Positions 5,267 to 20,720 of a stretch of DNA of 64,000 nt are shown in pieces; the first letter of the stretch is position 1, and each line of letters starts with the position of its first letter. The stretch is taken from the NCBI GenBank assembly GCA_020638555.1, contig JACKII010000003.1:112610-176609 (forward strand). The letters are read 5' to 3'. The notes under the pieces are model-generated. The model had not been told where the DNA came from. It was given only the letters and a program-made list of their open reading frames with translations, and searched no databases. Both the position numbers and the translations under genes were made by a program. This stretch comes from Alphaproteobacteria bacterium (GTDB lineage Bacteria; Pseudomonadota; Alphaproteobacteria; Bin95).

Positions 5267-6582
5267 CCGGCCTTCTCCGGGGTGTCGGCCTCCGGGGTGC
5301 CGGCCTCCGGGGTGCCGGTCTCGCGGCCGGCGATGTCGCGGCGGCAGAACCCGTCCGGCCAGTCGATCCGGTCGATGGCGCTGTAGGCGCGGGCGGCCGC
5401 CTCTGGGATCGAGGGCCCGAGGCCGGTCACGCCCAGCACCCGGCCGCCGGTCGCCAGCACCCGGCCCTCGTCCATGGCCGTGCCGGCGTGGAAGACGATC
5501 ACGTCCCACACCTCCGACAGAATGCCGAGGCCGCGGATTTCCGTGCCCTTCCGATAGGCGCCGGGATAGCCGTTCGCGGCCATGACCACGCACACCGCGG
5601 CCTCGTCGTACCAGCGCAGGTCGAACTGGTCGAGCACACCGTCGCGGGCGGCGAACATGGCCGGGATCAGGTCCGATTGCAGGCGCGGCAGCAGCACCTG
5701 CGCCTCCGGATCGCCCAGGCGGCAGTTGAACTCGATCACCTTCGGCCCGTCGGCGGTCAGCATCAGGCCGGCATAGAGCACACCCTTATACGGGGCGCCT
5801 TCCTTGGCCATCCCCTCCACCACCGGGTTGATGATCTCGCGCATGACGCGCTCGCTCATGGCCTCGTCGACCATGGGGGCGGGAGAATAGGCGCCCATGC
5901 CGCCGGTGTTCGGCCCGGTGTCGCCGTCGCCGACCCGCTTGTGGTCGCGGGCGGTGCCGAAGGGCACGGCGGTCGTGCCGTCCACCAGGGCAAAGAAGCT
6001 GGCCTCCTCGCCTTCCATGAACTCCTCGACCACCACTTCCTGGCCGGCGGTGCCGAACTCGCCCTTGATCATGGCGAGGTCGATGGCGGCCACCGCCTCG
6101 GCCCGGGTTTCCGGCAGCAGCACGCCCTTGCCGGCGGCCAGCCCGTCGGCCTTGACGACGACACGGCCCGGCTGCTGCGCCACATAGGCCTTGGCCATGA
6201 CGGGATCGCGGAAGCGGCGGTATTTGGCGGTCGGCACGCCGTATTTGGCGCAAAGGTCTTTCATGAAGCCCTTGGAGCCCTCGATCTGCGCCGCGGCGGC
6301 GCTGGGGCCGAACGCCTTGACGCCGGCGGCCTCCAGCCGGTCCACCAGGCCGGCGCAGAGCGGCGCTTCCGGGCCGACCACGACCAGATCGACGGCGTTG
6401 GCCTTGGCAAAGGCGAGAATGCCGTCCAGGTCGTCGGCGGCCAGGTCCGGCAGGCAGCTAGCCTCGCGGGCGATGCCGGCATTGCCGGGGGCGCACCAGA
6501 GCCCATCGCAGAGGGGAGAGGCCGCGATGGCCCAGCAAAGCGCGTGCTCGCGGCCGCCGCTGCCGATCACTAGAAACTTCAC
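5263..6582 (-). CDS. purD: phosphoribosylamine--glycine ligase
   Basis: 439-aa segment from GTG (VKFLVIGSGGREHAL) of track ORF 5263..8088; ATP-grasp PurD motifs (GGREHAL, GPNTGGMGAYSP); upstream part of the 941-aa track ORF is non-coding read-through. Confidence 0.9.
   Translation of the reverse strand: MKFLVIGSGGREHALCWAIAASPLCDGLWCAPGNAGIAREASCLPDLAADDLDGILAFAKANAVDLVVVGPEAPLCAGLVDRLEAAGVKAFGPSAAAAQIEGSKGFMKDLCAKYGVPTAKYRRFRDPVMAKAYVAQQPGRVVVKADGLAAGKGVLLPETRAEAVAAIDLAMIKGEFGTAGQEVVVEEFMEGEEASFFALVDGTTAVPFGTARDHKRVGDGDTGPNTGGMGAYSPAPMVDEAMSERVMREIINPVVEGMAKEGAPYKGVLYAGLMLTADGPKVIEFNCRLGDPEAQVLLPRLQSDLIPAMFAARDGVLDQFDLRWYDEAAVCVVMAANGYPGAYRKGTEIRGLGILSEVWDVIVFHAGTAMDEGRVLATGGRVLGVTGLGPSIPEAAARAYSAIDRIDWPDGFCRRDIAGRETGTPEAGTPEADTPEKAG
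5276..5322. repeat. in-frame 15-bp tandem repeat (x3) in purD 3' end
   Basis: tccggggtg(c/t)cggcc x3 encodes C-terminal TPEAG/TPEAD repeats of PurD. Confidence 0.6.
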
Positions 6583-6642
6583 GCCGGAATTCTCCGCTTG
6601 GCATCTGTCACAATCGAGGCGGGTCTTGTAGCATCCGCCGCG

Positions 6643-8378: not shown

Positions 8379-8870
8379 TCAGCGCGGTACGCGCTGCATG
8401 AAGTAGCGGCGGAGATTGATGCCCTCGGGAAGCGGCAGGCTTTCCCAACCTTCGCCGTCGATCGGCTGGTCGGAGACGATGACGGCGCCCGGCGCCGTCA
8501 GCGTCGCCAGCGTCTCCGCCAGGAACTGCGCCATGGCGGCGATACTGGCGGCACCGCCCTGGCCGAAATCGGCGTGCACCAGCGCCGCCTTCGCGCCGAT
8601 GCGCGCGGCCGCGGTCGGCAGCGTCTCGCGGAAATCGCCGAGGAACAGGTCATCGTCCGGCGGGATGCAGGAGGGGTGGGCCTGCACCAGCCGCTCGAAC
8701 ACGAAAATGCGCCGGTCGGGCAGGATCTCGCGCAGATGGTCGTAGGTGCGTCCGTTGCCAAGGCCGAGTTCCAGCACCGGGCCGGGAACATCCGCAATCA
8801 GCGCCGCGGCCCGGTCGAGACAGGCGCGCTGGGCTTGCATGCGGCGGATAAAGCTGTCGAGCCGGCTCAT
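8379..8870 (-). CDS. putative class I SAM-dependent methyltransferase (TylF/CmcI-like)
   Basis: 163 aa; glycine-rich VLELGLGNGRTYDHL motif resembling SAM-binding motif I; start overlaps upstream gene stop (ATGA). Confidence 0.5.
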   Translation of the reverse strand: MSRLDSFIRRMQAQRACLDRAAALIADVPGPVLELGLGNGRTYDHLREILPDRRIFVFERLVQAHPSCIPPDDDLFLGDFRETLPTAAARIGAKAALVHADFGQGGAASIAAMAQFLAETLATLTAPGAVIVSDQPIDGEGWESLPLPEGINLRRYFMQRVPR

Positions 8871-9313
8871 GCCGCCCGCGCTTCGCGCAGGTCGGCGGTG
8901 GTTTTCTCCAGCCGGCGGGCCAGTTCTTTCATGATTTCAATTCCCATTTCCGGCACTTCGGTCACCAGCCGGAAAAAATGCTCCTTGGAAATGCGCAGCG
9001 TGGTGAGATCGCTTGCGGCCCGCACGGTCGCGGTGCGCGGGATGTCGATCAGGATCGCGATTTCACCGATAATGTCATTGCAGCCGAGTGTCGCCACCTT
9101 CAGCTCGCCACTGGCGGAGGCGACGAACACGTCGGCCTCGCCCGCCAATACGATATAGGCGGAATCCCCCGGGTCCCCCTGCCGGACAATGTCCTCGCCG
9201 GCCGGGAACACCATGCGCTCACTGGTGAAGGCCAGCAGTTTCAGCCGGCGCGGCTCGATCCGCTGGAACAGCGGGAGACGGCGCAACGCATCGACTTCCT
9301 GGTTCAGCGACAT
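8867..9313 (-). CDS. stand-alone cyclic nucleotide-binding (CAP-effector) domain protein
   Basis: 148 aa; cNMP-binding beta-barrel motifs (FPAGEDIVRQGDPGDSAYIVLAGEADVF, GEIAIL, RTATVRA); no HTH domain. Confidence 0.7.
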   Translation of the reverse strand: MSLNQEVDALRRLPLFQRIEPRRLKLLAFTSERMVFPAGEDIVRQGDPGDSAYIVLAGEADVFVASASGELKVATLGCNDIIGEIAILIDIPRTATVRAASDLTTLRISKEHFFRLVTEVPEMGIEIMKELARRLEKTTADLREARAA

Positions 9314-9333
9314 GGGATTCTCCCGACTTCCCG

Positions 9334-11958
9334 CTATTCCGCGGCCTTGGTGATTGGAGCGGCCCCCGCCGATTCGGCTTCGACCCGGCCGCCCTCGATG
9401 GTGAAGATGCGTTGCATGGCCTGTGCCTGGTCCGGCTGATCCAGCACGGCGACCACGCCGCGCGGCGCCTGGGCTTCCAGGATACTGGCAAACACCTTGC
9501 CGCGCATCGACTCGTCGAACACGGACAGCGCCTGGTTGACCACCAGCAGGTCCGGTTGCTTGGCCAGCGCGCGGGCAAAGGCGAGTTTCTGCCGCTGCAC
9601 GGCCGACAGCCGGCCGCCGGCGACGCCGACATGATATTCGAGCCCGACATCCAGGATCGAATCGTGCAGGCCGGACTCGTTCAAGACCTCACCGACCAGA
9701 GCCCGCACCTTCGCCGCTCCCTGAGGTTGTCCATAAGCGACCTTTCCGAACAGAATATTGTCCTGAATCGAAGCCGCGCTATTGTACCGTTCCGGATCGA
9801 AGAAGGCCACGGCCCCTTTCAGATCTTCCGGCAGGTGTTCGGCGAAGGAGTGGCGGGCTTCCAGAAGGCGTTCTTCCAGCGAGTCGTCGAGCAGGTCCAG
9901 ACGGTGGCGCGCGGGGATCAGGCGGAACGGCAGCGACATCAGCCGGCTGCGGTCTTCCTCGCCCAACCCGGCAAGGCCCCGGCCACCGCGGTCGATCCGT
10001 CCCAGCAGCGCCTGAAATTCCGGCAGGTCCTCTGCGGCGATGAAGCTGAACTGCTCCATCAATTCGTGTCCCGGTTCGATGTCGGCGAACAGTTCCACCA
10101 TGGTTTCCGCCACCTTGCGGCCGATCCGGACGACATCGTCGGTCAATCCGACCCGGTCCAGCGTCTCTCGCACATAGGGATGTTCGCCCAGATTCTCCAG
10201 GTCGAACGTGGTTCCGACCGGGGTGCCGAACAGCAGGTTTTCGGCAAAGGTGGCGTTCCGGTTGTACCGCTCGGGATCGAAGGGTTCGATCAGGGCGCCG
10301 GCCCCGCTGGCGGCCACCCGTTCGCGGAAGGCGGCCCGCACCTCGAGCAGGGATTCCACCAGATGCGGATGGGCGTCACCGTCGATGCGGCCGCGCAGGC
10401 CGAACTCGTAAATGTCGTCGGCCAGCAGGGCGTCCTTGACCGACTGGCGCAGGCGCCGTTGCAGGTCGTCGGCACTGCCGTCGAGGCCGGCGCCTTCGTA
10501 ATGGATCCAGTCGCCGCTCAGATTGAAGATGCTGTTGCCGGCCGTCTCCGCCTCGGCGATCCAGGCGCGGCGGCTCTCGTCGACCTCCGCCGGCGGGTGC
10601 GTGCGCAGCGCCAGCAGCAGGTTTTCGCGGATGCTGGCGGAAAACAGATAGGGCTGGGCCGAAACATAGCCGATGCGCCGGCCGAGCCGCGCCTCCGGTA
10701 TCGTTCCCAGGTCGTCGTCGCCATACTGGATGCGGCCCGATGTCGGCGCGATCAGACGCACCAGCAGCGGCGCGATCTCCTCCTTGCCGCCGCCGCTGGG
10801 GCCGACAAAGGCGACCCGCTGGTCCAGGCCGAAGGCCAGATTGACATTGTGCAGGTAGACCGTGCCGTCGTCGTCGGCGAGCCCGACATGGCGCAGGGCG
10901 ATCTGCGCCTCGCCCGGAAACGGCGACGGCGGAATGTCGTCCGTGGCATGCAGATCCGGCTCCATCATGCCCGGTGGGTCGAACTGCTGGATGACGGTAT
11001 CGTATTTGATCCGGGCGTCGGCCAGCTGCTGGTAATAGGCCAGCAATTCCTTCCAGGGCGCGTTCATGTCCTTGTGGGCACTGATGACGGCGATCAGCGC
11101 ACCGACGCTCAGATTGCCCGTGATCGCCAGATACCCGCCCAGCGAATAGAATAGGAACGGCGTGAATTGCGCCAAGAAATTGTTGAAAAATTTAATAAAA
11201 AATTTTCTCCGGAAAATTTCGTACCGGATTTCATAGATAATTCCCAGGCGATGGGAAAATCGCGACAACTGATACTGGCTGCTGTCATTGGTGTGAATTT
11301 CGGATATGCCGCTGATGCTTTCCCCCAACTGGTCCGAGAGGATGCGGATGTTCTGCACCCGCTGCTTGGCCAGCTGGTTGACCTTTTTCTGGAGCCTGGG
11401 CACCAGCACGCCCTGGATGGGGAACAGCGCCACCGCCGCCAGACCGAGCCAAGGGTCCTGCATCAGGATGAACACCAGCAGGGTCACCAGGATGCCGCCC
11501 TGGTAGAGCGGCAGCGCCAGCGCATCGCCGAAAAAGCCGCCCAGCGGCTCCACCTCCTGCGTCACCATGGGGATCAACTCGCCCTGGCTGACCCGGCGGA
11601 AGTGCGGCAGGGGAAAGCGCAGAATGCGCTCGTACAGGATATAGCGCAGCCGGCGCAGCATGCGCTCGCCCAACCGCCCTTTCATCACATTGAGAACGTA
11701 TTTGAAGCCGCCATTGATGAGGACAAGCAGGAGAAACAGGCCGCACAAAACGAACAGATACGGCAAGTGCTCGAACTCGTAGCCATAGAATTCCTTTGGA
11801 AAATCGGCGGGCCGCCCCTGAATGGCCCCGTTGACGATGCGCTTCGGCAACTCCGCCTGAAAGTAAATGAACGGAAATGCGGCAAATGTCAGCACGATCA
11901 AAATGATCTGCTGGCGCTTACTGTAGGCAAAGATATAGCCGAACAGGGTTTGCTTCAT
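9334..11958 (-). CDS. ABC transporter, fused permease/ATP-binding protein with degenerate, internally repeated ATP-binding domain
   Basis: ATG at 11958 with AAGAG RBS (TTG at 11976 alternative); N-terminal 6-TM type-I exporter domain. The ATP-binding domain has an atypical Walker A (GPSGGGKE) and a Q-loop (VSAQ). The post-Q-loop segment is present three times (SIRENLLL / FDPERYNRNATFAENLLFG / FDPERYNSAASIQDNILFG). The signature is degenerate (LSAVQ), Walker B reads LLVVNQ, and the H-loop is not recognisable. Confidence 0.8.
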   Translation of the reverse strand: MKQTLFGYIFAYSKRQQIILIVLTFAAFPFIYFQAELPKRIVNGAIQGRPADFPKEFYGYEFEHLPYLFVLCGLFLLLVLINGGFKYVLNVMKGRLGERMLRRLRYILYERILRFPLPHFRRVSQGELIPMVTQEVEPLGGFFGDALALPLYQGGILVTLLVFILMQDPWLGLAAVALFPIQGVLVPRLQKKVNQLAKQRVQNIRILSDQLGESISGISEIHTNDSSQYQLSRFSHRLGIIYEIRYEIFRRKFFIKFFNNFLAQFTPFLFYSLGGYLAITGNLSVGALIAVISAHKDMNAPWKELLAYYQQLADARIKYDTVIQQFDPPGMMEPDLHATDDIPPSPFPGEAQIALRHVGLADDDGTVYLHNVNLAFGLDQRVAFVGPSGGGKEEIAPLLVRLIAPTSGRIQYGDDDLGTIPEARLGRRIGYVSAQPYLFSASIRENLLLALRTHPPAEVDESRRAWIAEAETAGNSIFNLSGDWIHYEGAGLDGSADDLQRRLRQSVKDALLADDIYEFGLRGRIDGDAHPHLVESLLEVRAAFRERVAASGAGALIEPFDPERYNRNATFAENLLFGTPVGTTFDLENLGEHPYVRETLDRVGLTDDVVRIGRKVAETMVELFADIEPGHELMEQFSFIAAEDLPEFQALLGRIDRGGRGLAGLGEEDRSRLMSLPFRLIPARHRLDLLDDSLEERLLEARHSFAEHLPEDLKGAVAFFDPERYNSAASIQDNILFGKVAYGQPQGAAKVRALVGEVLNESGLHDSILDVGLEYHVGVAGGRLSAVQRQKLAFARALAKQPDLLVVNQALSVFDESMRGKVFASILEAQAPRGVVAVLDQPDQAQAMQRIFTIEGGRVEAESAGAAPITKAAE

Positions 11959-12166
11959 CGGTAACTCTTGGCACAAAGGCGCGGCCGGGAGCCAATCTCG
12001 AACTTACCCGAAATCCCCGCGACTAACAATCACTTGGCCGAACTCCGCCTTTAGCCCATGTTTAAGATGTGATGCGTGCGTGGTAGCGTGCCGCTCGGTA
12101 CGGAGTGAAGGGCTCGGAAGATTGCCCCCAAAGGGTCCGGCCGAAAGTTGCAAATGGGAGCGGTCA
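11959..12166. promoter_or_regulatory. divergent intergenic control region between ABC exporter operon and glycosyltransferase operon
   Basis: 208-bp gap between divergently oriented first genes; GGGAG RBS 8 nt before ATG 12167. Confidence 0.3.
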
Positions 12167-13402
12167 ATGCGAGAAGCGCTGACTGGTGTGTCGGGAAGCA
12201 GGCGGATCCTGATCTACAGCCATGACAGTTTCGGCCTCGGCCATCTGCGCCGTTGCCGCGAGATCGCCAATGCACTGGTGGAGACCTACGATCATCTGTC
12301 GGTGCTGATCCTTTCGGGCTCGCCGATCATCGGCAGTTTCGACTTCCGTCCGCGGGTCGATTTCGTGCGCATTCCGGGCATGATCAAGCTGTCGAACGGC
12401 GAGTACACCTCGCACGCGCTCGACATCGCCCCGGAAAAGACGCTGGAATTGCGGGCGGCGGTGATCGGCGAGACCGCGCGGATTTTCGATCCCGACGTGT
12501 TCCTGGTCGACAAGGAACCGCTGGGCCTGCGCGGCGAGGTGCGCGCCACCCTGGAAATGCTGCGCGAACACGGCACCCGCATCGTGCTGGGCCTGCGCGA
12601 CGTGATGGACGATCCGGACGCGCTGGAGCCGGAATGGAAGCGCAAAAAGGCCCATTCCGCGCTGCGCGATCTCTATGACGACATCTGGGTTTATGGCCTG
12701 CCGCAAATCTGCGACCCGCTGGAAGGGGTCGACCTGCCGGATTCCGTGCGGCGCAAAATGGTCTATACCGGCTATCTGCGCCGGCGGGTGAGCCCGCGGC
12801 CCGATGCGGCGGTGAACCTGGTCGGCACCGAGCCCTATATCCTGGTGACGCCCGGCGGCGGCGGCGACGGCGATGCGCTGGTGGACTGGGTGGTCCGCGC
12901 TTACGAGCAGGACCCCGACCAGCCCTATCGCGCCCTGGTCGTGTTCGGCCCGTTCATGCAGGGCGAGCAGCAACAGGCCTTCCGCCAGCGCATCGAGGCG
13001 CTGGCCAATGTCGAGGCGATCACCTTCTACAACCAGATGGAAACGCTGATCGCCGGCGCCACTGGCGTCATCGCCATGGGCGGCTACAACACGTTCTGCG
13101 AGATCCTGTCGTTCGACAAGCCGGCCATCATCGTCCCCCGCACCCGGCCCCGCATGGAACAGTCGATCCGCGCCGCGCGGGCGCAGGAGCTGGGGCTGGT
13201 GCGCATGCTCGACCCGGACGACGGCCGCCCGGCGCGCGTCATGGCGACGGCGATCCGGCAATTGCCGCAGCAGGGCCGGCCGTCGGACGTGGTGGTGCCG
13301 GGCCTGCTGGACGGACTGGACAACGTCAATCGCCTGGTCGGTCGCGCATTGGACCAGGCGCGCCTGCCGCCGCTGCGCTTTGCCGAGGCGGGCGGTGACT
13401 GA
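12167..13402 (+). CDS. GT-B fold glycosyltransferase (PseG/MurG-like N-terminus)
   Basis: ATG 12167 within track ORF 12080..13402; N-terminal ILIYSHDSFGLGHLRR motif typical of PseG/MurG-like GT-B enzymes; C-terminal GGYNT motif. Confidence 0.75.
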   Translation: MREALTGVSGSRRILIYSHDSFGLGHLRRCREIANALVETYDHLSVLILSGSPIIGSFDFRPRVDFVRIPGMIKLSNGEYTSHALDIAPEKTLELRAAVIGETARIFDPDVFLVDKEPLGLRGEVRATLEMLREHGTRIVLGLRDVMDDPDALEPEWKRKKAHSALRDLYDDIWVYGLPQICDPLEGVDLPDSVRRKMVYTGYLRRRVSPRPDAAVNLVGTEPYILVTPGGGGDGDALVDWVVRAYEQDPDQPYRALVVFGPFMQGEQQQAFRQRIEALANVEAITFYNQMETLIAGATGVIAMGGYNTFCEILSFDKPAIIVPRTRPRMEQSIRAARAQELGLVRMLDPDDGRPARVMATAIRQLPQQGRPSDVVVPGLLDGLDNVNRLVGRALDQARLPPLRFAEAGGD

Positions 13403-14678
13403 CCGCAACGGTTCCGCGCCCGGGCGGACGGCGGTTGCGGTCGTTCTGAAAGGCTATCCACGGCTCTCCGAGACCTTCATCGCCCAGGAAATCCTGGCGT
13501 TGCAGCAGCGCGGGCTCTACCAGCACATCGTCTCGCTGCGCCATCCGACCGACCGGAAGCGTCACCCGATGCACGACGCGATCCGGGCGCCGGTGCTCTA
13601 TCTGCCGGAATACCTGTATCAGGAGCCGCTCCGGGTGCTGCGGGCCTGGTGGCGGGTGCGGCGGCGGCCGGCCTATCGGGCGGTGCGGCGGCAATGGCTC
13701 CGCGACTGGCGGCGCGACCGCACGCCGAACCGCGGCCGACGGTTCGGCCAGGCGCTGGTGCTGGCTGCTGAACTTCCGGCGGACATCGGCCATCTGCACG
13801 CGCATTTCCTGCACACCCCGGCCTCGGTGACGCGCTATGCGGCGGCGCTCAGCGGCCTCTCGTGGAGCGTCTCCGCCCATGCCAAGGACATCTGGACCTC
13901 GCCCGAATGGGAAAAGCGCGAGAAGCTGGCGGATTGCGCCTGGGCGGTGACCTGCACCGCCTTCGGCGCCGCGCACCTCCAGGCGCTGGCACCCGCGCCG
14001 GAACGGGTAGAGTTGCTGTATCACGGCCTGGACCTCGGCCGATTTCCGCCGCCGCTGGCCGAGCGCGGGGCACGTGACGGCAGCGATCCCGGCGCGCCGG
14101 CGCGGCTGCTCTCGGTCGGCCGGGCCGTGCCGAAAAAGGGCTATGACGACCTGCTCGACGCCCTCGCCCGCTTGCCGGCGGACCTGGCCTGGCATTTGAC
14201 CCATATCGGCGGCGGCAAGCTTGCCAGGCCCCTGCAACAGCGGGCCGAGCGCCTGGGCATCGCCCACCGCATCACCTGGCAGGGTTCGCAGGCGCAGGAG
14301 GCGGTGGTCGCGGCCTATCGCGAGGCGGACCTGTTCGTGCTCGCCAGCAAGGTGGCGGATGACGGCGACCGCGACGGCCTGCCGAACGTGCTGATGGAGG
14401 CGCAGAGCCAGGGCCTGGCCTGCCTGGCAACGACGGCGGCGGGCATCCCGGAACTGATCCGCGACGGCGAGACCGGGCGTTTGGTGCCGCCGGGCGATCC
14501 GGCCGCGCTGGCCGACGCCCTGGCGGCACTGATCCGGGCGCCGCAGGAGCGCGCGCGCCTCGGCCTGGCCGGCGCGGCGGCGTTGCGCCAGCGGTTCTCG
14601 TGCGAGACCGGCGTGGACCGACTGGCGCGGCGCTTCGGCCTCGCCGCCGGTGCGCCGTCAGCGCGCGCCGCGGAATAA
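13395..14678 (+). CDS. glycosyltransferase family 4
   Basis: GTG 13395 overlaps previous stop (GTGA); GT4 C-terminal domain with E-x7-E region (PNVLMEAQSQGLACLATTAAGIPE). Confidence 0.8.
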   Translation: MTDRNGSAPGRTAVAVVLKGYPRLSETFIAQEILALQQRGLYQHIVSLRHPTDRKRHPMHDAIRAPVLYLPEYLYQEPLRVLRAWWRVRRRPAYRAVRRQWLRDWRRDRTPNRGRRFGQALVLAAELPADIGHLHAHFLHTPASVTRYAAALSGLSWSVSAHAKDIWTSPEWEKREKLADCAWAVTCTAFGAAHLQALAPAPERVELLYHGLDLGRFPPPLAERGARDGSDPGAPARLLSVGRAVPKKGYDDLLDALARLPADLAWHLTHIGGGKLARPLQQRAERLGIAHRITWQGSQAQEAVVAAYREADLFVLASKVADDGDRDGLPNVLMEAQSQGLACLATTAAGIPELIRDGETGRLVPPGDPAALADALAALIRAPQERARLGLAGAAALRQRFSCETGVDRLARRFGLAAGAPSARAAE

Positions 14679-14693
14679 GGGCGTCCTCCCCGC

Positions 14694-15821
14694 ATGCGCG
14701 TTGCCTTTTATGCGCCGCTGAAGCCGCCGGACCACCCCACCCCGTCCGGCGACCGCCGCATCGCCCGGCTGCTGCTGGAGGCGTTGCGGCTCGCCGGCCA
14801 TGACGTGCATCTGGCATCCCGGCTGCGGTCGCGCGATGCGGTCGGCGACCGGCTGCGGCAGGCGCGGCTGGCCGACCTCGGCCAGCGCGTGGCAGCGCGG
14901 CTGCTGCGGCGGTATGCGGGCGCGGACGCCCGGCCCGACGCGTGGATCACCTATCACCTCTATTACAAGGCACCGGACTGGATCGGCCCGCACGTGGCGG
15001 CGGCGCTGGGCATCCCCTATATCGCGATCGAGGCCAGCCATGCGCCGAAACGCGCCGGCGGCCCCTGGGATCTGAGCCATCGCGCCGTCGCGCATGCGGT
15101 GCGCCAGGCGGCCCGCATCGTCTGCCTGAACCCGAACGACCGCGCCTGCCTGGAGCCGCTCGCCCCCGGCCGCATCGCCCTGTTGCCACCGTTTCTCGAC
15201 CCGACCCCGTACGCGCCGGCGGCAGGCGCCCGCGCGGCCCTGGCGGCGCGATACGGCCTGCCGATGGGGGAGCCCTGGCTGCTGGCCGTGGGCATGATGC
15301 GGCCCGGCGACAAGCTCGCCTCCTACCGCCAGCTGGCCGCGGCCCTGACGCGCCTCACCGACCGCCCCTGGCGCCTGCTGGTGGCGGGCGACGGCCCGGC
15401 GGCGGCGGCGGTGCACGCCGCCTTCGCACCGCTGGCGGACCGTGTGCACTGGCTCGGCGCGCTGGACGAGGCGGCCCTCGCCCGCGTCTATCCGGCCGCC
15501 GACCTGCTGGTCTGGCCCGCGGTGCGCGAGGCGTTCGGCATGGCCTTGCTGGAAGCGCAGGCCGGCGGGCTGCCCGTGGTGGCCGGCCGCACCGACGGCG
15601 TGCCCGCGGTGGTCGCGGCCGACACGACCGGCCTGCTGCCGCCGCCGGACGACATCGCCGCCTTCGCCGCCGCCGTCGCCACCCTGCTCGACGACCCCGC
15701 CCGGCGTGAGGCGATGGGACAGGCTGCGCGGGCGCGGGTTTTGCGGCATCATTCGCTCCAAACCGCAGCCATCGCACTCGACCGCATTCTGACGGAGGCC
15801 CTATGCCACTCCTCAGCCTGA
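14694..15821 (+). CDS. glycosyltransferase family 4 (MshA-like N-terminus)
   Basis: 375 aa; N-terminus MRVAFYAPLKPPDHPTPSGDRRIA resembles MshA-type GT4 enzymes; C-terminal GT4 motif (ALLEAQAGGLPVVAGRTDGVPAVV). Confidence 0.8.
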   Translation: MRVAFYAPLKPPDHPTPSGDRRIARLLLEALRLAGHDVHLASRLRSRDAVGDRLRQARLADLGQRVAARLLRRYAGADARPDAWITYHLYYKAPDWIGPHVAAALGIPYIAIEASHAPKRAGGPWDLSHRAVAHAVRQAARIVCLNPNDRACLEPLAPGRIALLPPFLDPTPYAPAAGARAALAARYGLPMGEPWLLAVGMMRPGDKLASYRQLAAALTRLTDRPWRLLVAGDGPAAAAVHAAFAPLADRVHWLGALDEAALARVYPAADLLVWPAVREAFGMALLEAQAGGLPVVAGRTDGVPAVVAADTTGLLPPPDDIAAFAAAVATLLDDPARREAMGQAARARVLRHHSLQTAAIALDRILTEALCHSSA

Positions 15822-16399
15822 TCCGGCACGCGCCCACCACCTGGAACGAGGCCGGACGCATCCAGGGCCAGACCGACACGCCGCTGAGCGAGGCCGGGCG
15901 CGCAGCCCTGCTGACCTGGGAGCCGCCGGCGCCGCTGCTGGCCGCCGACTGGTGGACCAGCCCCCTGCAACGCTGCCGCGACACCGCCCGGCACCTGGCC
16001 GGCCGCACCGTCGCCGTGGACGAGCGCTTGCAGGAAACGAACTGGGGCGACTGGCAGGGCAAGCGCCTCACCGACCTGCGCGAGAGCCTGGGCGAGGAAA
16101 TGGCCGAAATGGAAGGCCGCGGCTGGGATTTCCAGCCGCCGGGCGGCGAAAGCCCGCGCCAGGTCTCGGCGCGGTTTCAGGACTTTGTGCGCGCGGTGGC
16201 GGAGCGCGACCGGCCGACCGTCGCCGTCACCCACCGGGGCGTGATCCGGGTCGCGATGGCGCTGGCGACCGGCTGGGATTTCCTCGGCAAGTCGCCGGTG
16301 AAACTGCGCCGCCCGGCCGCCCACGTGTTCTGGGTGACGGCCGAGGGCACGCTGGAATTGCGCGACGCCAATGTGCCGCTGGGCGAGCCGGTGCCATGA
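15803..16399 (+). CDS. histidine phosphatase family protein (phosphoglycerate mutase-like)
   Basis: 198 aa; catalytic RHG motif (LIRHAPTTWNEAGRIQGQTD); overlaps upstream gene by 19 nt and downstream start by ATGA. Confidence 0.8.
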   Translation: MPLLSLIRHAPTTWNEAGRIQGQTDTPLSEAGRAALLTWEPPAPLLAADWWTSPLQRCRDTARHLAGRTVAVDERLQETNWGDWQGKRLTDLRESLGEEMAEMEGRGWDFQPPGGESPRQVSARFQDFVRAVAERDRPTVAVTHRGVIRVAMALATGWDFLGKSPVKLRRPAAHVFWVTAEGTLELRDANVPLGEPVP

Positions 16400-17571
16400 G
16401 CGACACCATGGCAGAGCGCGCCGGGGACGCCCCGAAAATCCTGTTCTGGGTCCAGCACCTGCTGGGCATCGGCCATCTGAAGCGCACGGCGACGCTGGCC
16501 CGCGCCCTGGCCCGGTCCGGGTTCGCTGTCACCGTGGTCTCCGGCGGTTTCCCGGTGCCGGGGCTGCGGCTCGACGGTGCCGGGTTCATGCAATTGCCGC
16601 CGGTGCGCGCGGTGGATGTGTATTTCAAGGACCTGCGCACCGAAGGCGACCGGCCCATCGACGACGCCTGGCGCGAGACGCGCCGCACCGCGCTGATGGC
16701 CGCCGCCGAGACGATCCGGCCCGACATCGTGCTGACCGAACTGTTTCCGTTCGGCCGCCGGCAACTGGCGTTCGAACTGGAGCCGTTCCTGACCGAAATG
16801 CGTGCCAGGGGCGTGCTGGTCGCCTGCTCCGTTCGCGATATCCTGGTGGAGCCGCCCAAACCCGAACGCCTGCTGGAAATGCTGGAGCGGACCGAGCGGC
16901 TGTTCGACCTGGTGCTGGTCCACGGCGACCCGGATCTGGTGCCGTTCGAAGAGACCTTTCCGCACAAGGAGCGCATCGGCGACCGCCTCGCCTATACCGG
17001 CTATGTGGTGGAAGAGCCGATCGCGGCGGCGGGCCGGGATGGCGAGGGCGAGGTCATCGTCTCCGCCGGCGGCGGTGCCGTCAGCGAACCGCTGCTGCGC
17101 GCGGCCCTGGCCGCGAAGCCGCTCAGCCGGGCGCGCGACCTGCCCTGGCGGCTGCTCTGCGGCGCCGGGATCGGCGAGGCGGCGGTGCGGGACCTGCAAC
17201 GGCTGGCCGACGCGGACACGGTGGTCGAACCGGCCCGGCCGGACTTTCCCGGCCTGCTCGCCCGCGGGCGGCTGTCTGTGAGCCAGGCCGGCTACAACAC
17301 CATCATGGACGTGCTGGCGGCGGGCATTCCCGGCGTCGTCGTCCCCTATGCGGGCGGGCTGGAGAGCGAGCAGACGCTGCGGGCGCGGCGGCTGGCGGAG
17401 CGCGGCGTGCTGCATGTGGTGAACGAGGCGGACCTGACGCCGGAGCGCCTGGCCGCCGGCATCGACCGGGCGCTGGCGGCCCCGCCCGGCTCGCTCGACC
17501 GGCTGGCCACCGACGGGTCTGCCGAGACCGTGCGCCTGTTGCGGGCGGCGCTGGCCCGGCGGCGCGCGTGA
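16396..17571 (+). CDS. GT-B fold glycosyltransferase, paralog of 12167..13402
   Basis: ATG 16396 (MSDTMAERAG) within track ORF 15952..17571; N-terminal ILFWVQHLLGIGHLKR and C-terminal AGYNT motifs parallel the first GT. Confidence 0.75.
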   Translation: MSDTMAERAGDAPKILFWVQHLLGIGHLKRTATLARALARSGFAVTVVSGGFPVPGLRLDGAGFMQLPPVRAVDVYFKDLRTEGDRPIDDAWRETRRTALMAAAETIRPDIVLTELFPFGRRQLAFELEPFLTEMRARGVLVACSVRDILVEPPKPERLLEMLERTERLFDLVLVHGDPDLVPFEETFPHKERIGDRLAYTGYVVEEPIAAAGRDGEGEVIVSAGGGAVSEPLLRAALAAKPLSRARDLPWRLLCGAGIGEAAVRDLQRLADADTVVEPARPDFPGLLARGRLSVSQAGYNTIMDVLAAGIPGVVVPYAGGLESEQTLRARRLAERGVLHVVNEADLTPERLAAGIDRALAAPPGSLDRLATDGSAETVRLLRAALARRRA

Positions 17572-18335
17572 GCGCGTTCGCGCCGCTGCTGGCCGAACTC
17601 GACGCCTGGAGCGAGGCCGGGCGGGTGGCGCAATTCTGGTGGCGCGACGACGACGCCGCCGACGCCGCTCCGGCCCTGGCAACCATGCTGGCGCTGCGGC
17701 GCGCGGCGGAGGTGCCGTTGGCGCTGGCGGCGATCCCGCTGGCGGCGACGGACGCGCTGGCGGACGCTGTGGCGGCGGAGTCGGGCGTTCAGGTCTGGCA
17801 GCACGGCATCCGCCACGCCAACCGCGCCGCACCGCCGGCGAAAAAGCAGGAACTGGTGAGCGCGGCGCCGGATATCCGCGCCGGCCTGGAGGAAGGCCGG
17901 CGGCAACTGGCGCGGCGGTTCGGCGCTCGGGCGCGGCCGGTGCTGGTGCCGCCCTGGAACCGCATCGCGCCGGACCTGCTGCCGCTGCTGCCCGGCCTGG
18001 GGTTTTGCGGCCTTTCCACCTTCAAGCCGCGCTCGAAGCCCTTTGCCGCGCCGGGGCTCGGCCGGATCAACACGCATGTGGACCTACTGGATTGGCGGGC
18101 GGGGGCAAGTTTCCGCGGCGCCGAGGCCTGCGTCCGCGACCTGACCGCCCATCTGTCCGCCAAGCGCAACGGCCGGGCCGACGCCGACGAACCGACGGGC
18201 GTGCTCGGCCATCATCGGGTGATGCAGGCCGACGCCTGGGCCTTTCTTGGCGCGCTGTTCGCCGCTACAACAGAAAAATCGTGCTGCGTCTGGACGCTGC
18301 CCGCCTTCCCTGACCCGGCGTCGGAGCCCGAATGA
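17568..18335 (+). CDS. polysaccharide deacetylase-like protein (divergent CE4)
   Basis: GTG 17568 overlapping prior stop (GTGA); CE4-like motifs WWRDDDA (Asp pair), QHGIRH (His-x3-His), VPPWNRI. Confidence 0.65.
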   Translation: MSAFAPLLAELDAWSEAGRVAQFWWRDDDAADAAPALATMLALRRAAEVPLALAAIPLAATDALADAVAAESGVQVWQHGIRHANRAAPPAKKQELVSAAPDIRAGLEEGRRQLARRFGARARPVLVPPWNRIAPDLLPLLPGLGFCGLSTFKPRSKPFAAPGLGRINTHVDLLDWRAGASFRGAEACVRDLTAHLSAKRNGRADADEPTGVLGHHRVMQADAWAFLGALFAATTEKSCCVWTLPAFPDPASEPE

Positions 18336-18844
18336 CCACCGCAGAGGCCCGTTTTCACTATCCGCTCGGCAATCTGGTGCCAGACTATCTGCGCGCCGGC
18401 GCCGGCTTCGGCCTGTCCATGGTGCCGCTGCCGGCGGCTTTGGGCGCGCATCCCCTGGTGCTGTTGATCGTCCTGGGGTTTGCCGGCCTGTTCGGCTCGT
18501 TCGGCGTGACGACCTTCATGCGCCAGAAATCGACGGTCATCGCCTCCGACGCGGGAATCCGGATCGAAGGCTTACGCAGCAAGGCGATTCGCTGGGAGGA
18601 CGTGCAGGGGGTCGACCTGCGCTATTTTTCCACCCGCAAGGAAAAAGACAAGGGCTGGCTGCAACTGAAAGTGATCGGACCAAACGGAACCGTTAAGGTG
18701 GACTCGAACCTGGACGATTTCGACGGCCTGCTGCGTTGGGTGGTGACCGCTATCACTCGACACGATTTGTCGGTTACGCTTATTGGACGAGAAAACTTTG
18801 CATCCAAGGGCCAACCATTGCCCACCAGGGAGGATACCGCGTGA
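18332..18844 (+). CDS. hypothetical small membrane protein (2 predicted TM helices plus PH-like soluble domain)
   Basis: ATG 18332 overlapping prior stop (ATGA); hydrophobic stretches GFGLSMVPLPAALGAHPLVLLIVLGFAGLFGSF; stop overlaps next GTG. Confidence 0.5.
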   Translation: MTTAEARFHYPLGNLVPDYLRAGAGFGLSMVPLPAALGAHPLVLLIVLGFAGLFGSFGVTTFMRQKSTVIASDAGIRIEGLRSKAIRWEDVQGVDLRYFSTRKEKDKGWLQLKVIGPNGTVKVDSNLDDFDGLLRWVVTAITRHDLSVTLIGRENFASKGQPLPTREDTA

Positions 18845-20706
18845 CGCCGCTGCTTGAGGTCGAGAACCTCTGCATCGACTTCAGCCTGCCGAGCGGGCCG
18901 ATGCGGGCGGTCGATGGGCTGAGCTTTCGCGTGCCGGCGGGCCGGACGGTCGCCCTGGTCGGCGAGAGCGGTTCGGGCAAATCGGTCACCGCCCAGGCGA
19001 TCATGGGCATCCTGCCAAGGGTGGCCAAAATCACCGGGGGCGCCATCCGCTTTCGCGATCCCGCGGCCAATGGCGCCGTGGTCGACATCGCCCAACTGGC
19101 GCCGGACGGCGGCGCCTTCCGCAATCTGCGCGGCGGGCGCATCGCCATCATTTTCCAGGAGCCGATGACATCGCTCTCGCCGGTGCACACCATCGGCAAC
19201 CAGATCGGCGAGGCGCTGGAACTCCACCGCGGCGTCGGCAAGACAGAGGCGCGCGCCGAAACCATCGAGATGCTGGACCTGGTCGGCTTCCCCGATCCGG
19301 AGCGCACCATCGACAGCTATCCGTTCGAACTCTCCGGCGGGCTGCGCCAGCGGGCGATGATCGCCATGGCGCTGGTCTGCCGCCCGGCGCTGCTGATCGC
19401 CGACGAGCCGACCACGGCGCTGGACGTGACGATCCAGGCGCAAATCCTCAAGCTTCTGAAGGATTTGCAGGCCCGTTTTCAGATGGCCGTGCTGATCATC
19501 ACCCACGACCTGGGCGTGGTCGCCAATGTCGCCGACGAGGTGGTGGTGCTCTATCACGGTCGGCTGATGGAATCCGGTGCGGTCGAGGATATTTTCCGCG
19601 ATCCGGGCCACCCCTACCTGAAAGCGCTGCTGCACGCGGTGCCACGCTTTCACATGGAAGTGGGCGAGCGGCTGGTGCCGCTGCGCGAGGTGGAAGCCGC
19701 CAGCGGCACGCTGCTGACGCCGCGCCCGCCCCTGGAAGGCCACGACCCGATTCTGACGGTCGCGGGGCTGACCAAATCCTTCGGCCAGCGCAAGCGCGGC
19801 CTGTTCGCGGGCAGCCATGCCGGCGGGCGGACACTGGCAGTGCGCGACGTCTCGTTCGCCATCGCTCCCGGCGAGTGCCTGGGTCTGGTCGGCGAGAGTG
19901 GCTGCGGCAAGTCCACGACCTCGAAAATCATCATGCAGGCGCTGGCCCCGGACAGCGGCAGCGTCACGCTGCGCACCGAGAACGGACCAGTCGACGTGTT
20001 GCATGCCGAAGGGGCGCAACTGATGCAGTTGCGCCGCCGGATGCAGTACATTTTCCAGGACCCGTTCAGCGCCCTGAACCCGCGCATGACCGTGTTCGAC
20101 ATCGTCAGCGAGCCGCTGGTGATCCATGGCATCGGCACGGCGGCGGAGCGGCGCGCCTTCGTCATCGAACTGATGCAGCGCGTCGGCCTGGACCCGCGCT
20201 ATCTGAACCGCTACCCGCACAGCTTTTCCGGCGGCCAGCGCCAGCGCATCGGCATCGCGCGTGCCCTGGCGCTGCGGCCGCAAGTGCTGATCTGCGACGA
20301 GCCCGTCTCGGCGCTCGACGTGTCGGTGCAGGCGCAGATCCTGAACCTGCTGAAGGATTTGCAGCGGGAGTTGGGGCTGACCTACCTGTTCATTTCCCAC
20401 AATCTGGCGGTGGTGGACTATATGGCGGACCGGATCGCGGTGATGTGCGCCGGGCGGCTGGTGGAACTGGCGCCGCGCGCCGCACTGTTCCGGGGCCCGC
20501 GCCATCCCTACACCCAGGCGCTGGTGAGCGCGGTGCCGGAGCCGAGCCTGGATCATCCGCTGGATTTCCGCCGGGTGATGGACGAACGCGCGTCCGACCC
20601 CGCGGCCTGGCCGCCCCCCTATGCCGACGCCGACGGCGCCGCGCGGCTGGTGGAGGTGGAGCCGGGCCACTATGTGCGCCAGCGCGCCGAAGCGGCGGCG
20701 GCGTGA
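18841..20706 (+). CDS. ABC transporter ATP-binding protein with two ATP-binding domains (YejF/DppDF-like)
   Basis: GTG 18841 ([14 protein letters not shown]) within track ORF 18736..20706; two Walker A boxes ([16 protein letters not shown]), two LSGG signatures. Confidence 0.85.
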
Positions 20707-20720
20707 GGGGCGGACCGACC

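What the first reader, a model, noticed from the sequence alone, without database searches (positions are those of the whole stretch)
8379..11958. Atypical 874-aa ABC exporter with a catalytically degenerate, internally triplicated ATP-binding domain, co-oriented with a stand-alone cNMP-binding protein and a methyltransferase
The permease and ATP-binding domains are fused, with a normal 6-TM exporter core. The ATP-binding domain has a Walker A ending in KE and a Q-loop. The segment that normally follows the Q-loop is present three times: SIRENLLL, FDPERYNRNATFAENLLFG and FDPERYNSAASIQDNILFG. The signature reads LSAVQ, the Walker B acid pair is replaced by NQ (LLVVNQ), and no H-loop His is evident. 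A homodimer of this protein would be predicted unable to hydrolyse ATP by the canonical mechanism. Immediately downstream, with ATGA overlap between them, are a 148-aa cNMP-binding domain protein with no DNA-binding domain and a small methyltransferase. The set is transcribed divergently from the glycosyltransferase operon. This may be a nucleotide-gated or regulatory ABC protein serving the glycoconjugate locus.
Basis: partly seen in the sequence, partly recalled or inferred. Interest (0 to 1): 0.65.

Follow-up and report, generated by a model that had tools for sequence, protein, structure and literature searches.

The report
ATPase-dead ABC exporter with cyclic-nucleotide partner
This gene belongs to a widespread, undescribed alphaproteobacterial family of ABC-exporter-shaped membrane proteins that have lost their ATP-splitting residues, gained a triplicated piece in the ATP-binding domain, always travel with (or are fused to) a cyclic-nucleotide sensor, and sit in a conserved sugar-transferase locus, which suggests a transporter fold controlled by second messengers rather than driven by ATP hydrolysis.

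Summary
Window 9334-11958 (-) encodes an 874-aa ABCB-type half transporter. Its ATP-binding domain is split by a ~290-aa insert (residues 451-740). Its motifs read GPSGGGKE, LSAVQ and LLVVNQ, and it has no H-loop His.

The insert is a real internal triplication of the segment after the Q-loop (profile-profile E = 5e-11 and 1.7e-5). It folds confidently and resembles only ABC helical subdomains.

None of this is private decay. In 310 full-length relatives, none has a canonical catalytic set, and Walker B Asp is Asn in 258. The membrane domain and the insert are the most conserved parts.

At least 597 species genomes encode a relative, and the named ones among the 80 kept are almost all Alphaproteobacteria. 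In 77 of 80 loci the 148-aa cNMP-binding gene follows directly. In sister clades the same domain is fused to the C-terminus, often with a receptor-type degenerate GGDEF domain. Some loci add a class III cyclase.

The five-gene glycosyltransferase operon and an Opp-type importer are syntenic throughout.

Best reading: a non-hydrolytic ABC-fold translocator or gate for the locus's glycoconjugate, regulated by second messengers. Substrate and mechanism remain inferred. No literature on the family was found.

The parts
9334..11958 (-). 874-aa ABCB-type (type IV exporter fold) half transporter with a degenerate, expanded ATP-binding domain
   Evidence: Pfam ABC_membrane 1.4e-22 and ABC_tran 6.9e-15. 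Best PDB sequence and fold matches are ABCB1, TmrAB, ABCB8 and MsbA. AF2 model mean pLDDT 81.7. A 100% identical protein, P0001, comes from an Alphaproteobacteria MAG.
10969..11958 (-). Transmembrane domain (residues 1-330, six long helices); the most conserved part of the protein
   Evidence: Helices in the AF2 model. 117 of 330 columns are at least 95% conserved, and mean entropy is 0.91 bits against 1.56-1.68 bits for the RecA-like core.
10609..10908 (-). N-terminal part of the ATP-binding domain (residues 351-450): Walker A GPSGGGKE (10780-10803), Q-loop strand VSAQ, and repeat copy 1, SIRENLLLA (10609-10665)
   Evidence: In 120 close relatives, Walker A Lys is present in 87, the following residue is Glu or Asp in 113, and the Q-loop Gln is present in 20.
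9739..10608 (-). About 290-aa insert in the helical subdomain (residues 451-740). It includes repeat copy 2 (IEPFDPERYNRNATFAENLLFGTP, 10219-10290) and repeat copy 3 (VAFFDPERYNSAASIQDNILFGKV, 9739-9810)
9334..9738 (-). C-terminal part of the ATP-binding domain (residues 741-874): signature LSAVQ (9595-9609), Walker B LLVVNQ (9532-9549), D-loop ALSVFD (9514-9531), H-loop position VAVLDQPD (9430-9453)
   Evidence: Alignment to ABCB1. Coordinates checked. Across the family, Walker B Asp is Asn in 258 of 310 and no member is fully canonical.
8867..9313 (-). 148-aa stand-alone cyclic-nucleotide-binding (CNB) domain protein, the probable regulatory subunit of the ABC protein
   Evidence: PF00027 at 9.3e-21, the only domain. 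Best PDB matches are the CNB domains of PKG and the PKA regulatory subunit. The phosphate-binding cassette GEIAILxDxPRTAT is conserved in 78 orthologs: Gly 77, Glu 75, Arg 78, Ala 78. The gene follows the ABC gene directly in 77 of 80 loci. It is orthologous to the fused C-terminal domain of sister proteins at 42-47% identity, E about 1e-40.
8379..8870 (-). 163-aa Methyltransf_17 SAM-dependent methyltransferase, overlapping the CNB gene by ATGA; a frequent accessory gene
   Evidence: PF12692 at 5e-59. PDB 3IHT at 3e-41. Overlap read. Present downstream in 57 of 80 loci. Replaced by a class III cyclase or by unrelated genes in the others.
12167..17571 (+). Divergent five-gene operon: GT28-like glycosyltransferase, GT4, GT4, histidine phosphatase, GT28-like glycosyltransferase
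   Evidence: Pfam and NCBIfam. Each gene is conserved in 60-68 of 80 loci at 46-65% identity. The same five genes lie beside the fused forms in L087, L088 and L089 and in Thalassobaculum salexigens, L081.
17559..20706 (+). Conserved downstream genes: a ~250-aa protein with a faint DUF2334 (deacetylase-like) match, a small ORF, and the fused double ATPase of an Opp/Dpp-type ABC importer (18736-20706). A permease follows at 22666-23664
   Evidence: tblastn finds the ~250-aa protein in 57 loci and the window. The ATPase matches ABC_tran at 3.2e-58 plus oligo_HPY and is found in 55 of 80 loci. The gene order is the same in L081 and L087-L089. The permease is seen.

Best explanation
The gene encodes a member of a large, uncharacterised family of ABCB-type half transporters, mainly alphaproteobacterial, that has given up ATP hydrolysis. 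The ATP-binding domain keeps its fold and its dimer-contact elements: the signature Ser and Gln, and the D-loop Asp. Family-wide it lacks the residues that bind Mg-ATP and catalyse hydrolysis. The Walker A Ser/Thr is Glu or Asp, the Walker B Asp is Asn, the Q-loop Gln and H-loop His are not conserved, and the A-loop aromatic is Leu.

The helical subdomain, which normally couples the ATP-binding domain to the membrane domain, has been enlarged by two further tandem copies of its first segment plus extra helices. This gives a conserved ~290-aa module.

The protein most likely works as a homodimer in complex with the adjacent cyclic-nucleotide-binding protein. In this reading, cAMP or cGMP occupancy of that subunit, rather than ATP turnover, sets whether the two ATP-binding domains close and so which state the membrane domain adopts. 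In sister clades c-di-GMP, acting on a fused receptor-type GGDEF domain, would play the same part.

The membrane domain is the most conserved part, and the gene is embedded in a conserved glycosyltransferase, phosphatase, deacetylase-like and importer locus. The most likely job is therefore gated, energy-independent or proton-motive-force-dependent translocation of that locus's glycoconjugate across the inner membrane.

Shown: the motif loss, the triplication, the conservation pattern, the synteny, the gene fusions and the intact cNMP-binding cassette. Inferred: the homodimer, the physical complex, cNMP gating, the absence of ATPase activity, transport itself and the substrate.
For: 1. Degeneracy is family-wide and patterned, not random. 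0 of 120 close relatives and 0 of 310 full-length relatives in three architectures have canonical K-[ST]...D-E...H. Walker B is Asn in 258 of 310, and the Walker A +1 residue is Glu or Asp in 113 of 120 close relatives.

2. The usual conservation pattern is inverted. The membrane domain has 117 of 330 columns at least 95% conserved, insert part B has 36 of 160, and the RecA-like core has only 13 of 100 and 8 of 82. Signature Ser and Gln and the D-loop Asp are retained.

3. The insert is a folded, duplicated helical-subdomain module.

4. Partnership with the CNB protein. The gene is adjacent in 77 of 80 species loci. The orthologous domain is fused to the C-terminus in 137 of the 310 full-length proteins collected. 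The phosphate-binding cassette is conserved.

5. Second-messenger context. A class III cyclase gene lies directly after the CNB gene (L045, L060, L071) or after the fused gene (L082), and a CHASE2-cyclase is convergent in L086. The fused GGDEF-like domain has lost GGDEF but keeps the RxxD I-site in 75 of 77.

6. Link to the glycosyltransferase locus. The operon is divergent from the ABC gene in about 66 of 80 loci. In all three long contigs of the GGDEF-fused clade, the ABC gene sits co-directionally between the glycosyltransferase genes and the Opp-type importer.

7. Precedents from established knowledge and a paper. SbmA/BacA use an ABC-exporter-type membrane domain without any ATP-binding domain. 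The ABC exporter HetC needs its fused cNMP-type domain for function (PMC10986499).
Against: No biochemical data exist for any member, and none was found in six literature searches.

The Walker A Lys is kept in about 70% of members. The position of the catalytic Glu is acidic in many: Asp or Glu in 74 of 120 close relatives, and Glu in most fused forms. The conserved Glu/Asp after the Walker A Lys could in principle ligate Mg2+ directly. Nucleotide binding, or a slow non-canonical hydrolysis, is therefore not excluded.

A canonical partner half transporter encoded elsewhere in the genome could not be searched for.

The product of the glycosyltransferase operon is unknown, so no substrate can be named.

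Where the insert sits relative to the dimer interface, the coupling helices or the C-terminus is therefore unknown.

CNB-fused forms also occur away from any glycosyltransferase operon (L082, L086, L090), so the family's role may be broader than glycoconjugate export.
Confidence: 0.5

Rival explanations
1. It is a membrane-anchored signalling or scaffolding protein, not a translocator. The ABC-fold membrane domain would sense a lipid, glycolipid or periplasmic cue, or would tether the glycosyltransferases. The dead ATP-binding domain plus its insert would relay conformational state to or from the CNB subunit, and in sister clades to the GGDEF-like domain.
For: Fusions to signalling domains (CNB, GGDEF-like) and neighbourhoods rich in cyclases and response regulators. 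CNB-fused members occur without any glycosyltransferase operon. The strongly conserved insert could be a protein-docking surface.
Against: The GGDEF-like domain is a receptor type (RxxD kept, GGDEF lost), so it is an input, not an output. No output domain is present in the window protein. The full type IV exporter membrane domain is the most conserved region, as expected if a translocation pathway is maintained. The gene is positioned inside a biosynthetic operon in L087-L089.
Confidence: 0.22
2. It is still an ATP-powered ABC exporter. Either it uses non-canonical chemistry, with the Walker A Glu/Asp ligating Mg2+ in place of Ser/Thr and the Walker B Asp, or it is the degenerate half of a heterodimer whose canonical partner is encoded elsewhere. 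The CNB protein would merely modulate it.
For: The P-loop glycines are invariant, and the Lys is kept in the window protein and in most relatives. The conserved acidic residue after the Lys, together with the conserved Asn at Walker B, looks like a co-ordinated swap rather than decay. Heterodimeric exporters with one degenerate site (TmrAB, TM287/288, BmrCD) are well known, and they appear among the fold matches.
Against: In known heterodimers the degenerate chain keeps a consensus signature and the partner gene is adjacent. Here Walker A, Walker B, the Q-loop, the H-loop and the signature of the same chain all deviate, so both composite sites would be impaired. No second exporter gene is adjacent in any of the 80 loci. 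The Walker A Lys is absent in about 30% of members, and the window protein has Gln at the catalytic-base position, the classic hydrolysis-dead substitution. The RecA-like core is the least constrained region.
Confidence: 0.18
3. It is the effector of a Pycsar-like anti-phage system: a cyclase makes a cyclic nucleotide on infection, and the CNB-linked membrane protein then disrupts the membrane.
For: PADLOC models for PycTIR and PycC hit the CNB protein (8e-18) and the cyclases of L082 and L045 (8e-24, 3e-28). Cyclase plus CNB plus membrane protein is the Pycsar logic.
Against: The hits are at domain level only. No cyclase lies in the window or in most loci. The gene is syntenic with housekeeping-type biosynthetic genes across many alphaproteobacterial families, at identities that track its neighbours. 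That pattern is vertical inheritance in a core locus, not a defence island.
Confidence: 0.03
4. It is a decaying or misassembled gene whose odd motifs and repeats are artefacts.
For: None beyond the unusual motifs. The GC content of 10001-12000 is lower (0.62) than that of its neighbours.
Against: The ORF is intact. A 100% identical protein occurs in an independent record. Hundreds of full-length orthologs carry the same architecture, and the repeats are nearly invariant. AF2 models are confident.
Confidence: 0.01

Closest known systems
Type IV (ABCB-like) homodimeric or heterodimeric ABC exporters such as MsbA, Sav1866, TmrAB, ABCB1 halves and NdvA
   Same: Same domain order (a 6-helix ABC_membrane domain followed by an ATP-binding domain). 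They are the best sequence and fold matches. Signature Ser and Gln, the D-loop Asp and the P-loop glycines are retained.
   Different: Every catalytic or Mg-ATP-ligating residue is replaced family-wide. A ~290-aa triplication sits in the helical subdomain. The membrane domain is more conserved than the ATP-binding domain. All NCBIfam equivalog scores are far below cut-off, for example MsbA 159 against 602 bits.
Heterodimeric ABC exporters with one degenerate site (TmrAB, TM287/288, BmrCD, CydDC), and CFTR/SUR
   Same: They show that non-hydrolytic nucleotide sites can serve regulatory or gating roles in an exporter fold.
   Different: Those keep one consensus site and an adjacent or fused partner. 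Here a single gene carries deviations in Walker A, Walker B, the Q-loop, the H-loop, the A-loop and the signature, with no partner gene nearby.
SbmA/BacA (an ABC-exporter-type membrane domain without an ATP-binding domain, proton-driven)
   Same: A precedent from established knowledge that this membrane fold can translocate substrates without ATP hydrolysis.
   Different: SbmA/BacA lack the ATP-binding domain altogether. This family retains and enlarges it, and couples it to a sensor domain.
HetC of Nostoc (a peptidase-containing ABC exporter with an N-terminal cNMP-type domain), and the TIGR03896 cyclic-nucleotide proteins next to bacteriocin ABC exporters
   Same: A cNMP-binding-type domain is functionally tied to an ABC exporter. 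In HetC the domain is essential in vivo (PMC10986499). TIGR03896 gives a weak hit to the window CNB protein.
   Different: HetC's ATPase catalytic Glu is essential, and its domain bound ppGpp but not cAMP. There the domain is N-terminal and lacks the canonical cassette behaviour. Here the ATPase is dead and the CNB cassette is canonical.
Exopolysaccharide secretion proteins controlled by c-di-GMP through degenerate GGDEF or PilZ receptors (PelD, Alg44, BcsA)
   Same: The sister clade carries a GGDEF-like domain with the active-site motif lost and the RxxD I-site kept, as in PelD. It sits inside the same glycosyltransferase operon.
   Different: The receptor is attached to an ABC-fold protein rather than to a synthase or co-polymerase. 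The window protein itself has no GGDEF-like domain.
ABC importers with regulatory domains on the ATP-binding subunit (MalK, MetN, ModC; OpuA/OpuC CBS domains that bind c-di-AMP)
   Same: A C-terminal ligand-binding module on the ATP-binding domain sets transporter activity. The fused relatives place the CNB domain at the same end.
   Different: Those are active ATPases of importers. Here the regulated domain has no catalytic residues.

Membership tests
ABC exporter, type IV fold (Pfam ABC_membrane + ABC_tran) | Six-helix ABC_membrane domain N-terminal to the ATP-binding domain | tested here: met
   PF00664 at 81.2 bits (cut-off 28), residues 40-293. Helices in the AF2 model. Fold matches to ABCB1, TmrAB and MsbA.
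ABC exporter, type IV fold (Pfam ABC_membrane + ABC_tran) | ABC_tran domain above the gathering score | tested here: met
   PF00005 at 56.3 bits (cut-off 25), but in two pieces separated by about 265 residues.
Catalytically competent ABC ATPase | Walker A GxxGxGK[ST] | tested here: not met
   GPSGGGKE. Ser/Thr is replaced by Glu or Asp in 113 of 120 relatives, and the Lys is absent in 33 of 120.
Catalytically competent ABC ATPase | Walker B hhhhD followed by the catalytic Glu | tested here: not met
   LLVVNQ. Asn is found at the Asp position in 258 of 310 relatives.
Catalytically competent ABC ATPase | Q-loop Gln, H-loop His and A-loop aromatic | tested here: not met
   The window has a Gln at residue 435, but that position is Gln in only 20 of 120 relatives. 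The H-loop position is Asp840. The A-loop Tyr of ABCB1 aligns with Leu.
Catalytically competent ABC ATPase | Signature LSGGQ | tested here: inconclusive
   LSAVQ. Ser (98 of 120) and Gln (114 of 120) are kept, but the two Gly are lost.
Catalytically competent ABC ATPase | Measured ATP hydrolysis | not testable with these tools
   Needs purified protein.
Named exporter equivalogs (MsbA, HepA, CydDC, NdvA/ChvA, PglK, type I secretion) | NCBIfam score above the curated cut-off | tested here: not met
   Best is MsbA at 159 bits against 602. All others are further below cut-off.
Heterodimeric ABC exporter with one degenerate site | Adjacent partner half-transporter gene, and a consensus signature in the degenerate chain | tested here: not met
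   No second ABC_membrane gene is adjacent in the window, L081 or the 80 loci. The signature is non-consensus. A distant partner elsewhere in the genome could not be searched for.
Cyclic-nucleotide-binding domain proteins (PF00027), for the 148-aa partner | Domain match plus the phosphate-binding cassette G-E-x-A-x(5)-P-R-[ST]-A | tested here: met
   74 bits (cut-off 27.5). GEIAILIDIPRTAT aligns with the PKG and PKA cassettes and is conserved in 78 orthologs. Actual cAMP or cGMP binding is not testable here.
CRP/FNR transcription factors, for the 148-aa partner | C-terminal helix-turn-helix DNA-binding domain | tested here: not met
   The protein ends about 30 residues after the CNB domain. 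There is no HTH Pfam hit, and matches to CRP models cover only their N-terminal halves.
Pycsar anti-phage systems | A PycC cyclase gene adjacent to a CNB-effector fusion, in a variable defence context | tested here: not met
   No cyclase lies in the window. PADLOC hits are at domain level only. The locus is syntenic across many lineages.
Methyltransf_17 (PF12692), for the 163-aa protein | Full-length profile match and a SAM-binding GxGxG motif | tested here: met
   199 bits over profile positions 1-159 of 160. 3IHT at 3e-41. The ELGLGNG motif is present. The substrate is unknown.

The most novel reading that the evidence does not exclude
The family is a new class of ABC-fold membrane machine in which second-messenger binding replaces the ATP power stroke. 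The messenger would be cAMP or cGMP acting through the CNB subunit, or c-di-GMP acting through the fused receptor-type GGDEF domain. Closure of the dead ATP-binding domains would be driven by ligand-induced association of the sensor domains with the triplicated helical-subdomain module. This would turn the exporter fold into a ligand-gated conduit or facilitator for a cytoplasmically made glycoconjugate, which the co-encoded Opp-type importer may take up again.
Probability: 0.25. Interest if true: 0.85.

Novelty: new variant of a known kind. Interest (0 to 1): 0.66.

Why it matters
ABC transporters are defined by ATP-driven closure of two conserved ATP-binding domains. Known degenerate sites are always paired with a working site. 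This family differs on every count:
- At least 597 species genomes encode a relative, and a profile of the insert finds 444 clusters (50% identity) at E up to 1e-30.
- The whole catalytic set is gone.
- The membrane domain is under stronger constraint than the ATP-binding domain.
- The coupling subdomain is triplicated.
- A cyclic-nucleotide sensor is an obligate partner or a fused domain.

Such a family would be a natural experiment on what the ABC fold can do without hydrolysis. It would also extend cAMP/cGMP and c-di-GMP control to a new kind of membrane effector in Alphaproteobacteria. In addition, it flags a conserved 11-12-gene glycoconjugate locus of unknown product, and it gives the structural-genomics orphan Methyltransf_17 (3IHT) a genomic context. 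Several cultured carriers exist, so the hypothesis can be tested directly.

Tried and rejected
- **Literature.** Six full-text searches found nothing on this family. They covered the ABC + cNMP + glycosyltransferase combination, Methyltransf_17, fully degenerate ABC proteins, CNB + ABC exporter, Pfam domain names and COG4671. Only the HetC precedent turned up.
- **Naming the glycosyltransferase product.** NCBIfam and PDB gave only generic GT4 and GT28 similarities, all below cut-off. No product can be assigned.
- **Pycsar or another defence system.** PADLOC gave domain-level hits only. Rejected because of the conserved core-genome synteny.
- **CRP-type regulator.** Rejected for the 148-aa protein, which has no DNA-binding domain.
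- **Active diguanylate cyclase in fused relatives.** Rejected: 75 of 77 lack any GG[DE]EF-like motif.
- **Magnetospira sp. QH-2 context (P0350).** The lookup failed because the exact product is not on record.
- **Model geometry.** AF2 coordinates are not exposed to scripts, so the position of the insert relative to the dimer interface and coupling helices could not be analysed.
- **ORF 20621-22672.** No Pfam hit, although an SBP_bac_5 gene is expected there by synteny. The true frame or start was not resolved.

Full report
**1. What is in the window**

Three co-oriented genes lie on the minus strand:
- an 874-aa ORF at 9334-11958
- a 148-aa ORF at 8867-9313, starting 20 nt after the first gene's stop
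- a 163-aa ORF at 8379-8870, overlapping the second by ATGA

Pfam assigns ABC_membrane (residues 40-293) and ABC_tran to the first, cNMP_binding alone to the second, and Methyltransf_17 (5e-59) to the third. A 100% identical ABC protein is on record from an Alphaproteobacteria MAG. The window's GC content (65-75%) fits that origin.

**2. The ATP-binding domain**

The ABC_tran match is split. Residues 369-462 cover profile positions 1-80, and the remainder resumes near residue 728. phmmer alignments to ABCB1 show the same break. They also place the motifs:

| Motif | Window sequence | Canonical form |
|---|---|---|
| Walker A | GPSGGGKE | GxxGxGK[ST] |
| Signature | LSAVQ | LSGGQ |
| Walker B + catalytic base | LLVVNQ | hhhhDE |
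| H-loop | Asp840 | His |
| A-loop | Leu | Tyr |

Coordinates were re-derived and checked by translation.

**3. The triplication**

I cut a 120-sequence family alignment at the three copies and compared the pieces as profiles:
- Copy 2 (from residue 556) vs copy 3 (from residue 716): probability 97%, E = 5e-11 over 57 columns.
- Copy 1 (from residue 428) vs copy 3: probability 79%, E = 1.7e-5 over 69 columns.
- Copy 1 vs copy 2: only 22 columns, E = 4e-4.

Each copy comprises a short strand, the FDxxxYN/QPxLF loop, the [ST]hx[ED]N[LI]LFG helix, and the first helices that normally open the helical subdomain. Copy 1 is continuous with the RecA-like core. Copy 3 is continuous with the X-loop and signature.

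**4. It is a family trait**

The best 120 database relatives are 45-82% identical and 863-939 aa long. In them:
- Walker A Lys occurs in 87.
- The next residue is Glu or Asp in 113.
- The Q-loop Gln occurs in 20.
- The Walker B Asp position is Asn in 108.
- The catalytic position is Asp in 44, Glu in 30, Gln in 17, Asn in 11 and Gly in 10.
- The H-loop position is Gln, Asp or His.

Copies 2 and 3 are almost invariant in these relatives.

In 310 full-length relatives of all architectures, none is fully canonical and Asn replaces the Walker B Asp in 258.

Conservation is inverted relative to ordinary ABC proteins:

| Region | Columns at least 95% conserved |
|---|---|
| Membrane domain | 117 of 330 |
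| Insert, residues 557-716 | 36 of 160 |
| RecA-like core, first piece | 13 of 100 |
| RecA-like core, second piece | 8 of 82 |

Signature Ser and Gln and the D-loop Asp persist. Selection thus maintains the membrane domain, the insert and the dimer-contact elements, but not catalysis.

**5. Distribution and synteny**

The best 80 come from Thalassobaculum, Nisaea, Stellaceae, Azospirillaceae, Geminicoccaceae, Sneathiella, Oceanibacterium and many alphaproteobacterial MAGs. tblastn with the window's proteins gives:
- the cNMP gene directly downstream in 77 of 80 loci
- Methyltransf_17 in 57 of 80
- the divergent GT28-like glycosyltransferase in about 66 of 80, at about 60-77% identity
- each of the five operon genes (GT28-like, GT4, GT4, histidine phosphatase, GT28-like) in 60-68 of 80

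Thalassobaculum salexigens shows the identical layout with called genes. A ~250-aa deacetylase-like gene (faint DUF2334 match) and an Opp/Dpp-type importer follow the operon in the window and in most loci.

**6. Gene fusions and cyclases**

A profile of the insert was searched against 1.84 billion representatives. It found 444 clusters at E up to 1e-30. About a quarter of the full-length hits are 1010-1206 aa. Pfam shows that these carry a C-terminal cNMP_binding domain, and the longest also carry a GGDEF domain.

A second homology search shows these are abundant in Rhodospirillales. Among the 386 proteins collected there are 173 ABC-only, 60 ABC+CNB, 77 ABC+CNB+GGDEF-like and 76 fragments.

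The window's stand-alone CNB protein aligns end to end with the fused domain at 42-47% identity, E about 1e-40. This is similar to the divergence of the ABC parts. It is a classic fusion/fission signal for two subunits of one complex.

The GGDEF-like domain has no GG[DE]EF motif in 75 of 77 cases but keeps the RxxD I-site (Arg in 75 of 77, Asp in 75 of 77). That is the pattern of c-di-GMP receptors.

Contexts of the different forms:
- All three GGDEF-fused genes on long contigs (L087, L088, L089) lie co-directionally between the same five-gene glycosyltransferase operon and the deacetylase-like and Opp-type genes.
- CNB-fused genes lie next to class III cyclases in L082 (overlapping downstream gene) and L086 (convergent CHASE2-cyclase).
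- In the unfused loci L045, L060 and L071, a class III cyclase replaces the methyltransferase directly after the CNB gene.
- No cyclase lies in this window.

**7. The partner proteins**

The CNB protein's best solved relatives are the CNB domains of PKG and the PKA regulatory subunit. Its cassette GEIAILIDIPRTATVRA carries the Gly, Glu, Arg and Thr-Ala that bind the cyclic phosphate. These are conserved in 78 orthologs. It has no DNA-binding domain.

The methyltransferase is a close relative of the structural-genomics protein 3IHT. Its role is unknown, and it is dispensable for the module.

**8. Interpretation**

The data fit a non-hydrolytic ABC-fold protein that forms a complex with a cyclic-nucleotide sensor and belongs functionally to a glycoconjugate locus. 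I consider gated translocation of the locus's product the most likely job. The reasons are that the exporter-type membrane domain is the most constrained part, and that the gene sits inside the biosynthetic operon in a sister clade.

Precedents exist for each element:
- translocation by this membrane fold without ATP (SbmA/BacA; established knowledge)
- a cNMP-type domain required by an ABC exporter (HetC; PMC10986499)
- receptor-type GGDEF control of polysaccharide export (PelD; established knowledge)

Rivals are a pure signalling or scaffold role, residual or partner-supplied ATP dependence, and a Pycsar-like effector. The last is supported only by domain-level PADLOC hits and is contradicted by the conserved core-genome synteny.

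**9. Limits**

- No biochemical evidence exists.
- The glycosyltransferase product is unnamed.
- Whole genomes could not be scanned for a canonical partner.
- Model coordinates could not be inspected.
- Literature searches found nothing on the family. Subscription literature is not covered by those searches.

**10. Verdict**

The finding is a new variant of a known kind: an ABC exporter fold with a dead, triplicated ATP-binding domain and an obligate second-messenger sensor. It is widespread, uncharacterised and experimentally tractable. Interest is 0.66.

Noticed in passing
P0129, P0145, P0175, P0191, P0229, P0254 and P0168 (ABC+CNB); P0207, P0215 and P0275-P0385 (ABC+CNB+GGDEF-like): Sister clades fuse the cNMP-binding domain to the C-terminus of the degenerate ABC protein, and often a GGDEF-like domain as well. 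That domain has lost the GGDEF motif but keeps the RxxD I-site (75 of 77), which is the pattern of a c-di-GMP receptor.
   Followed up: yes
L082:13171-14451; L045:11114-12352; L060:11136-12353; L071:4310-5086; L086:13048-14994: Class III nucleotidyl cyclase genes lie directly after the CNB gene or the fused ABC-CNB gene, or convergent to it. In three unfused loci (L045, L060, L071) they take the place of the methyltransferase. The Lys in the KFIGD motif and the Asp in the RLDFT motif look adenylate-type by eye; this was not tested.
   Followed up: partly
window 12167-24862: A conserved 11-12-gene neighbourhood: two GT28-like and two GT4 glycosyltransferases, a histidine phosphatase, a ~250-aa protein with a faint DUF2334 (deacetylase-like) match, and an Opp/Dpp-type importer with a fused double ATPase. 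It accompanies the ABC gene in both divergent and co-directional arrangements. Its product is unknown.
   Followed up: partly
window 20621-22672: By synteny an SBP_bac_5 binding-protein gene is expected here (L081, L087-L089), but the listed ORF gave no Pfam hit. The true frame or start was not resolved.
   Followed up: no
L064:11203-12516; L076; L077 (Sneathiella): In Sneathiella the gene after the CNB gene is an AmpG/acetyl-CoA-transporter-like MFS permease instead of the methyltransferase. These loci also lack a close homolog of the GT28-like gene in the usual position.
   Followed up: no
L084:3792-5696: One CNB-fused family member is followed by a 634-aa Sulfatase-family (PF00884) gene. 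This superfamily includes the LtaS, OpgB and EptA type of membrane transferases. This is a single short contig.
   Followed up: no
window 52001-56000: GC content drops to 0.58-0.62 against about 0.69 in the surrounding sequence. The ABC gene region (10001-12000) is also lower, at 0.62. The 52-56 kb dip was not examined.
   Followed up: no
window 5263-8223: The module is flanked on its left by purD-like (minus strand) and xseA-like (plus strand) ORFs, named by reading the translations only. tblastn found neither gene in any of the 80 related loci, so the left boundary of the conserved module is the methyltransferase gene.
   Followed up: partly
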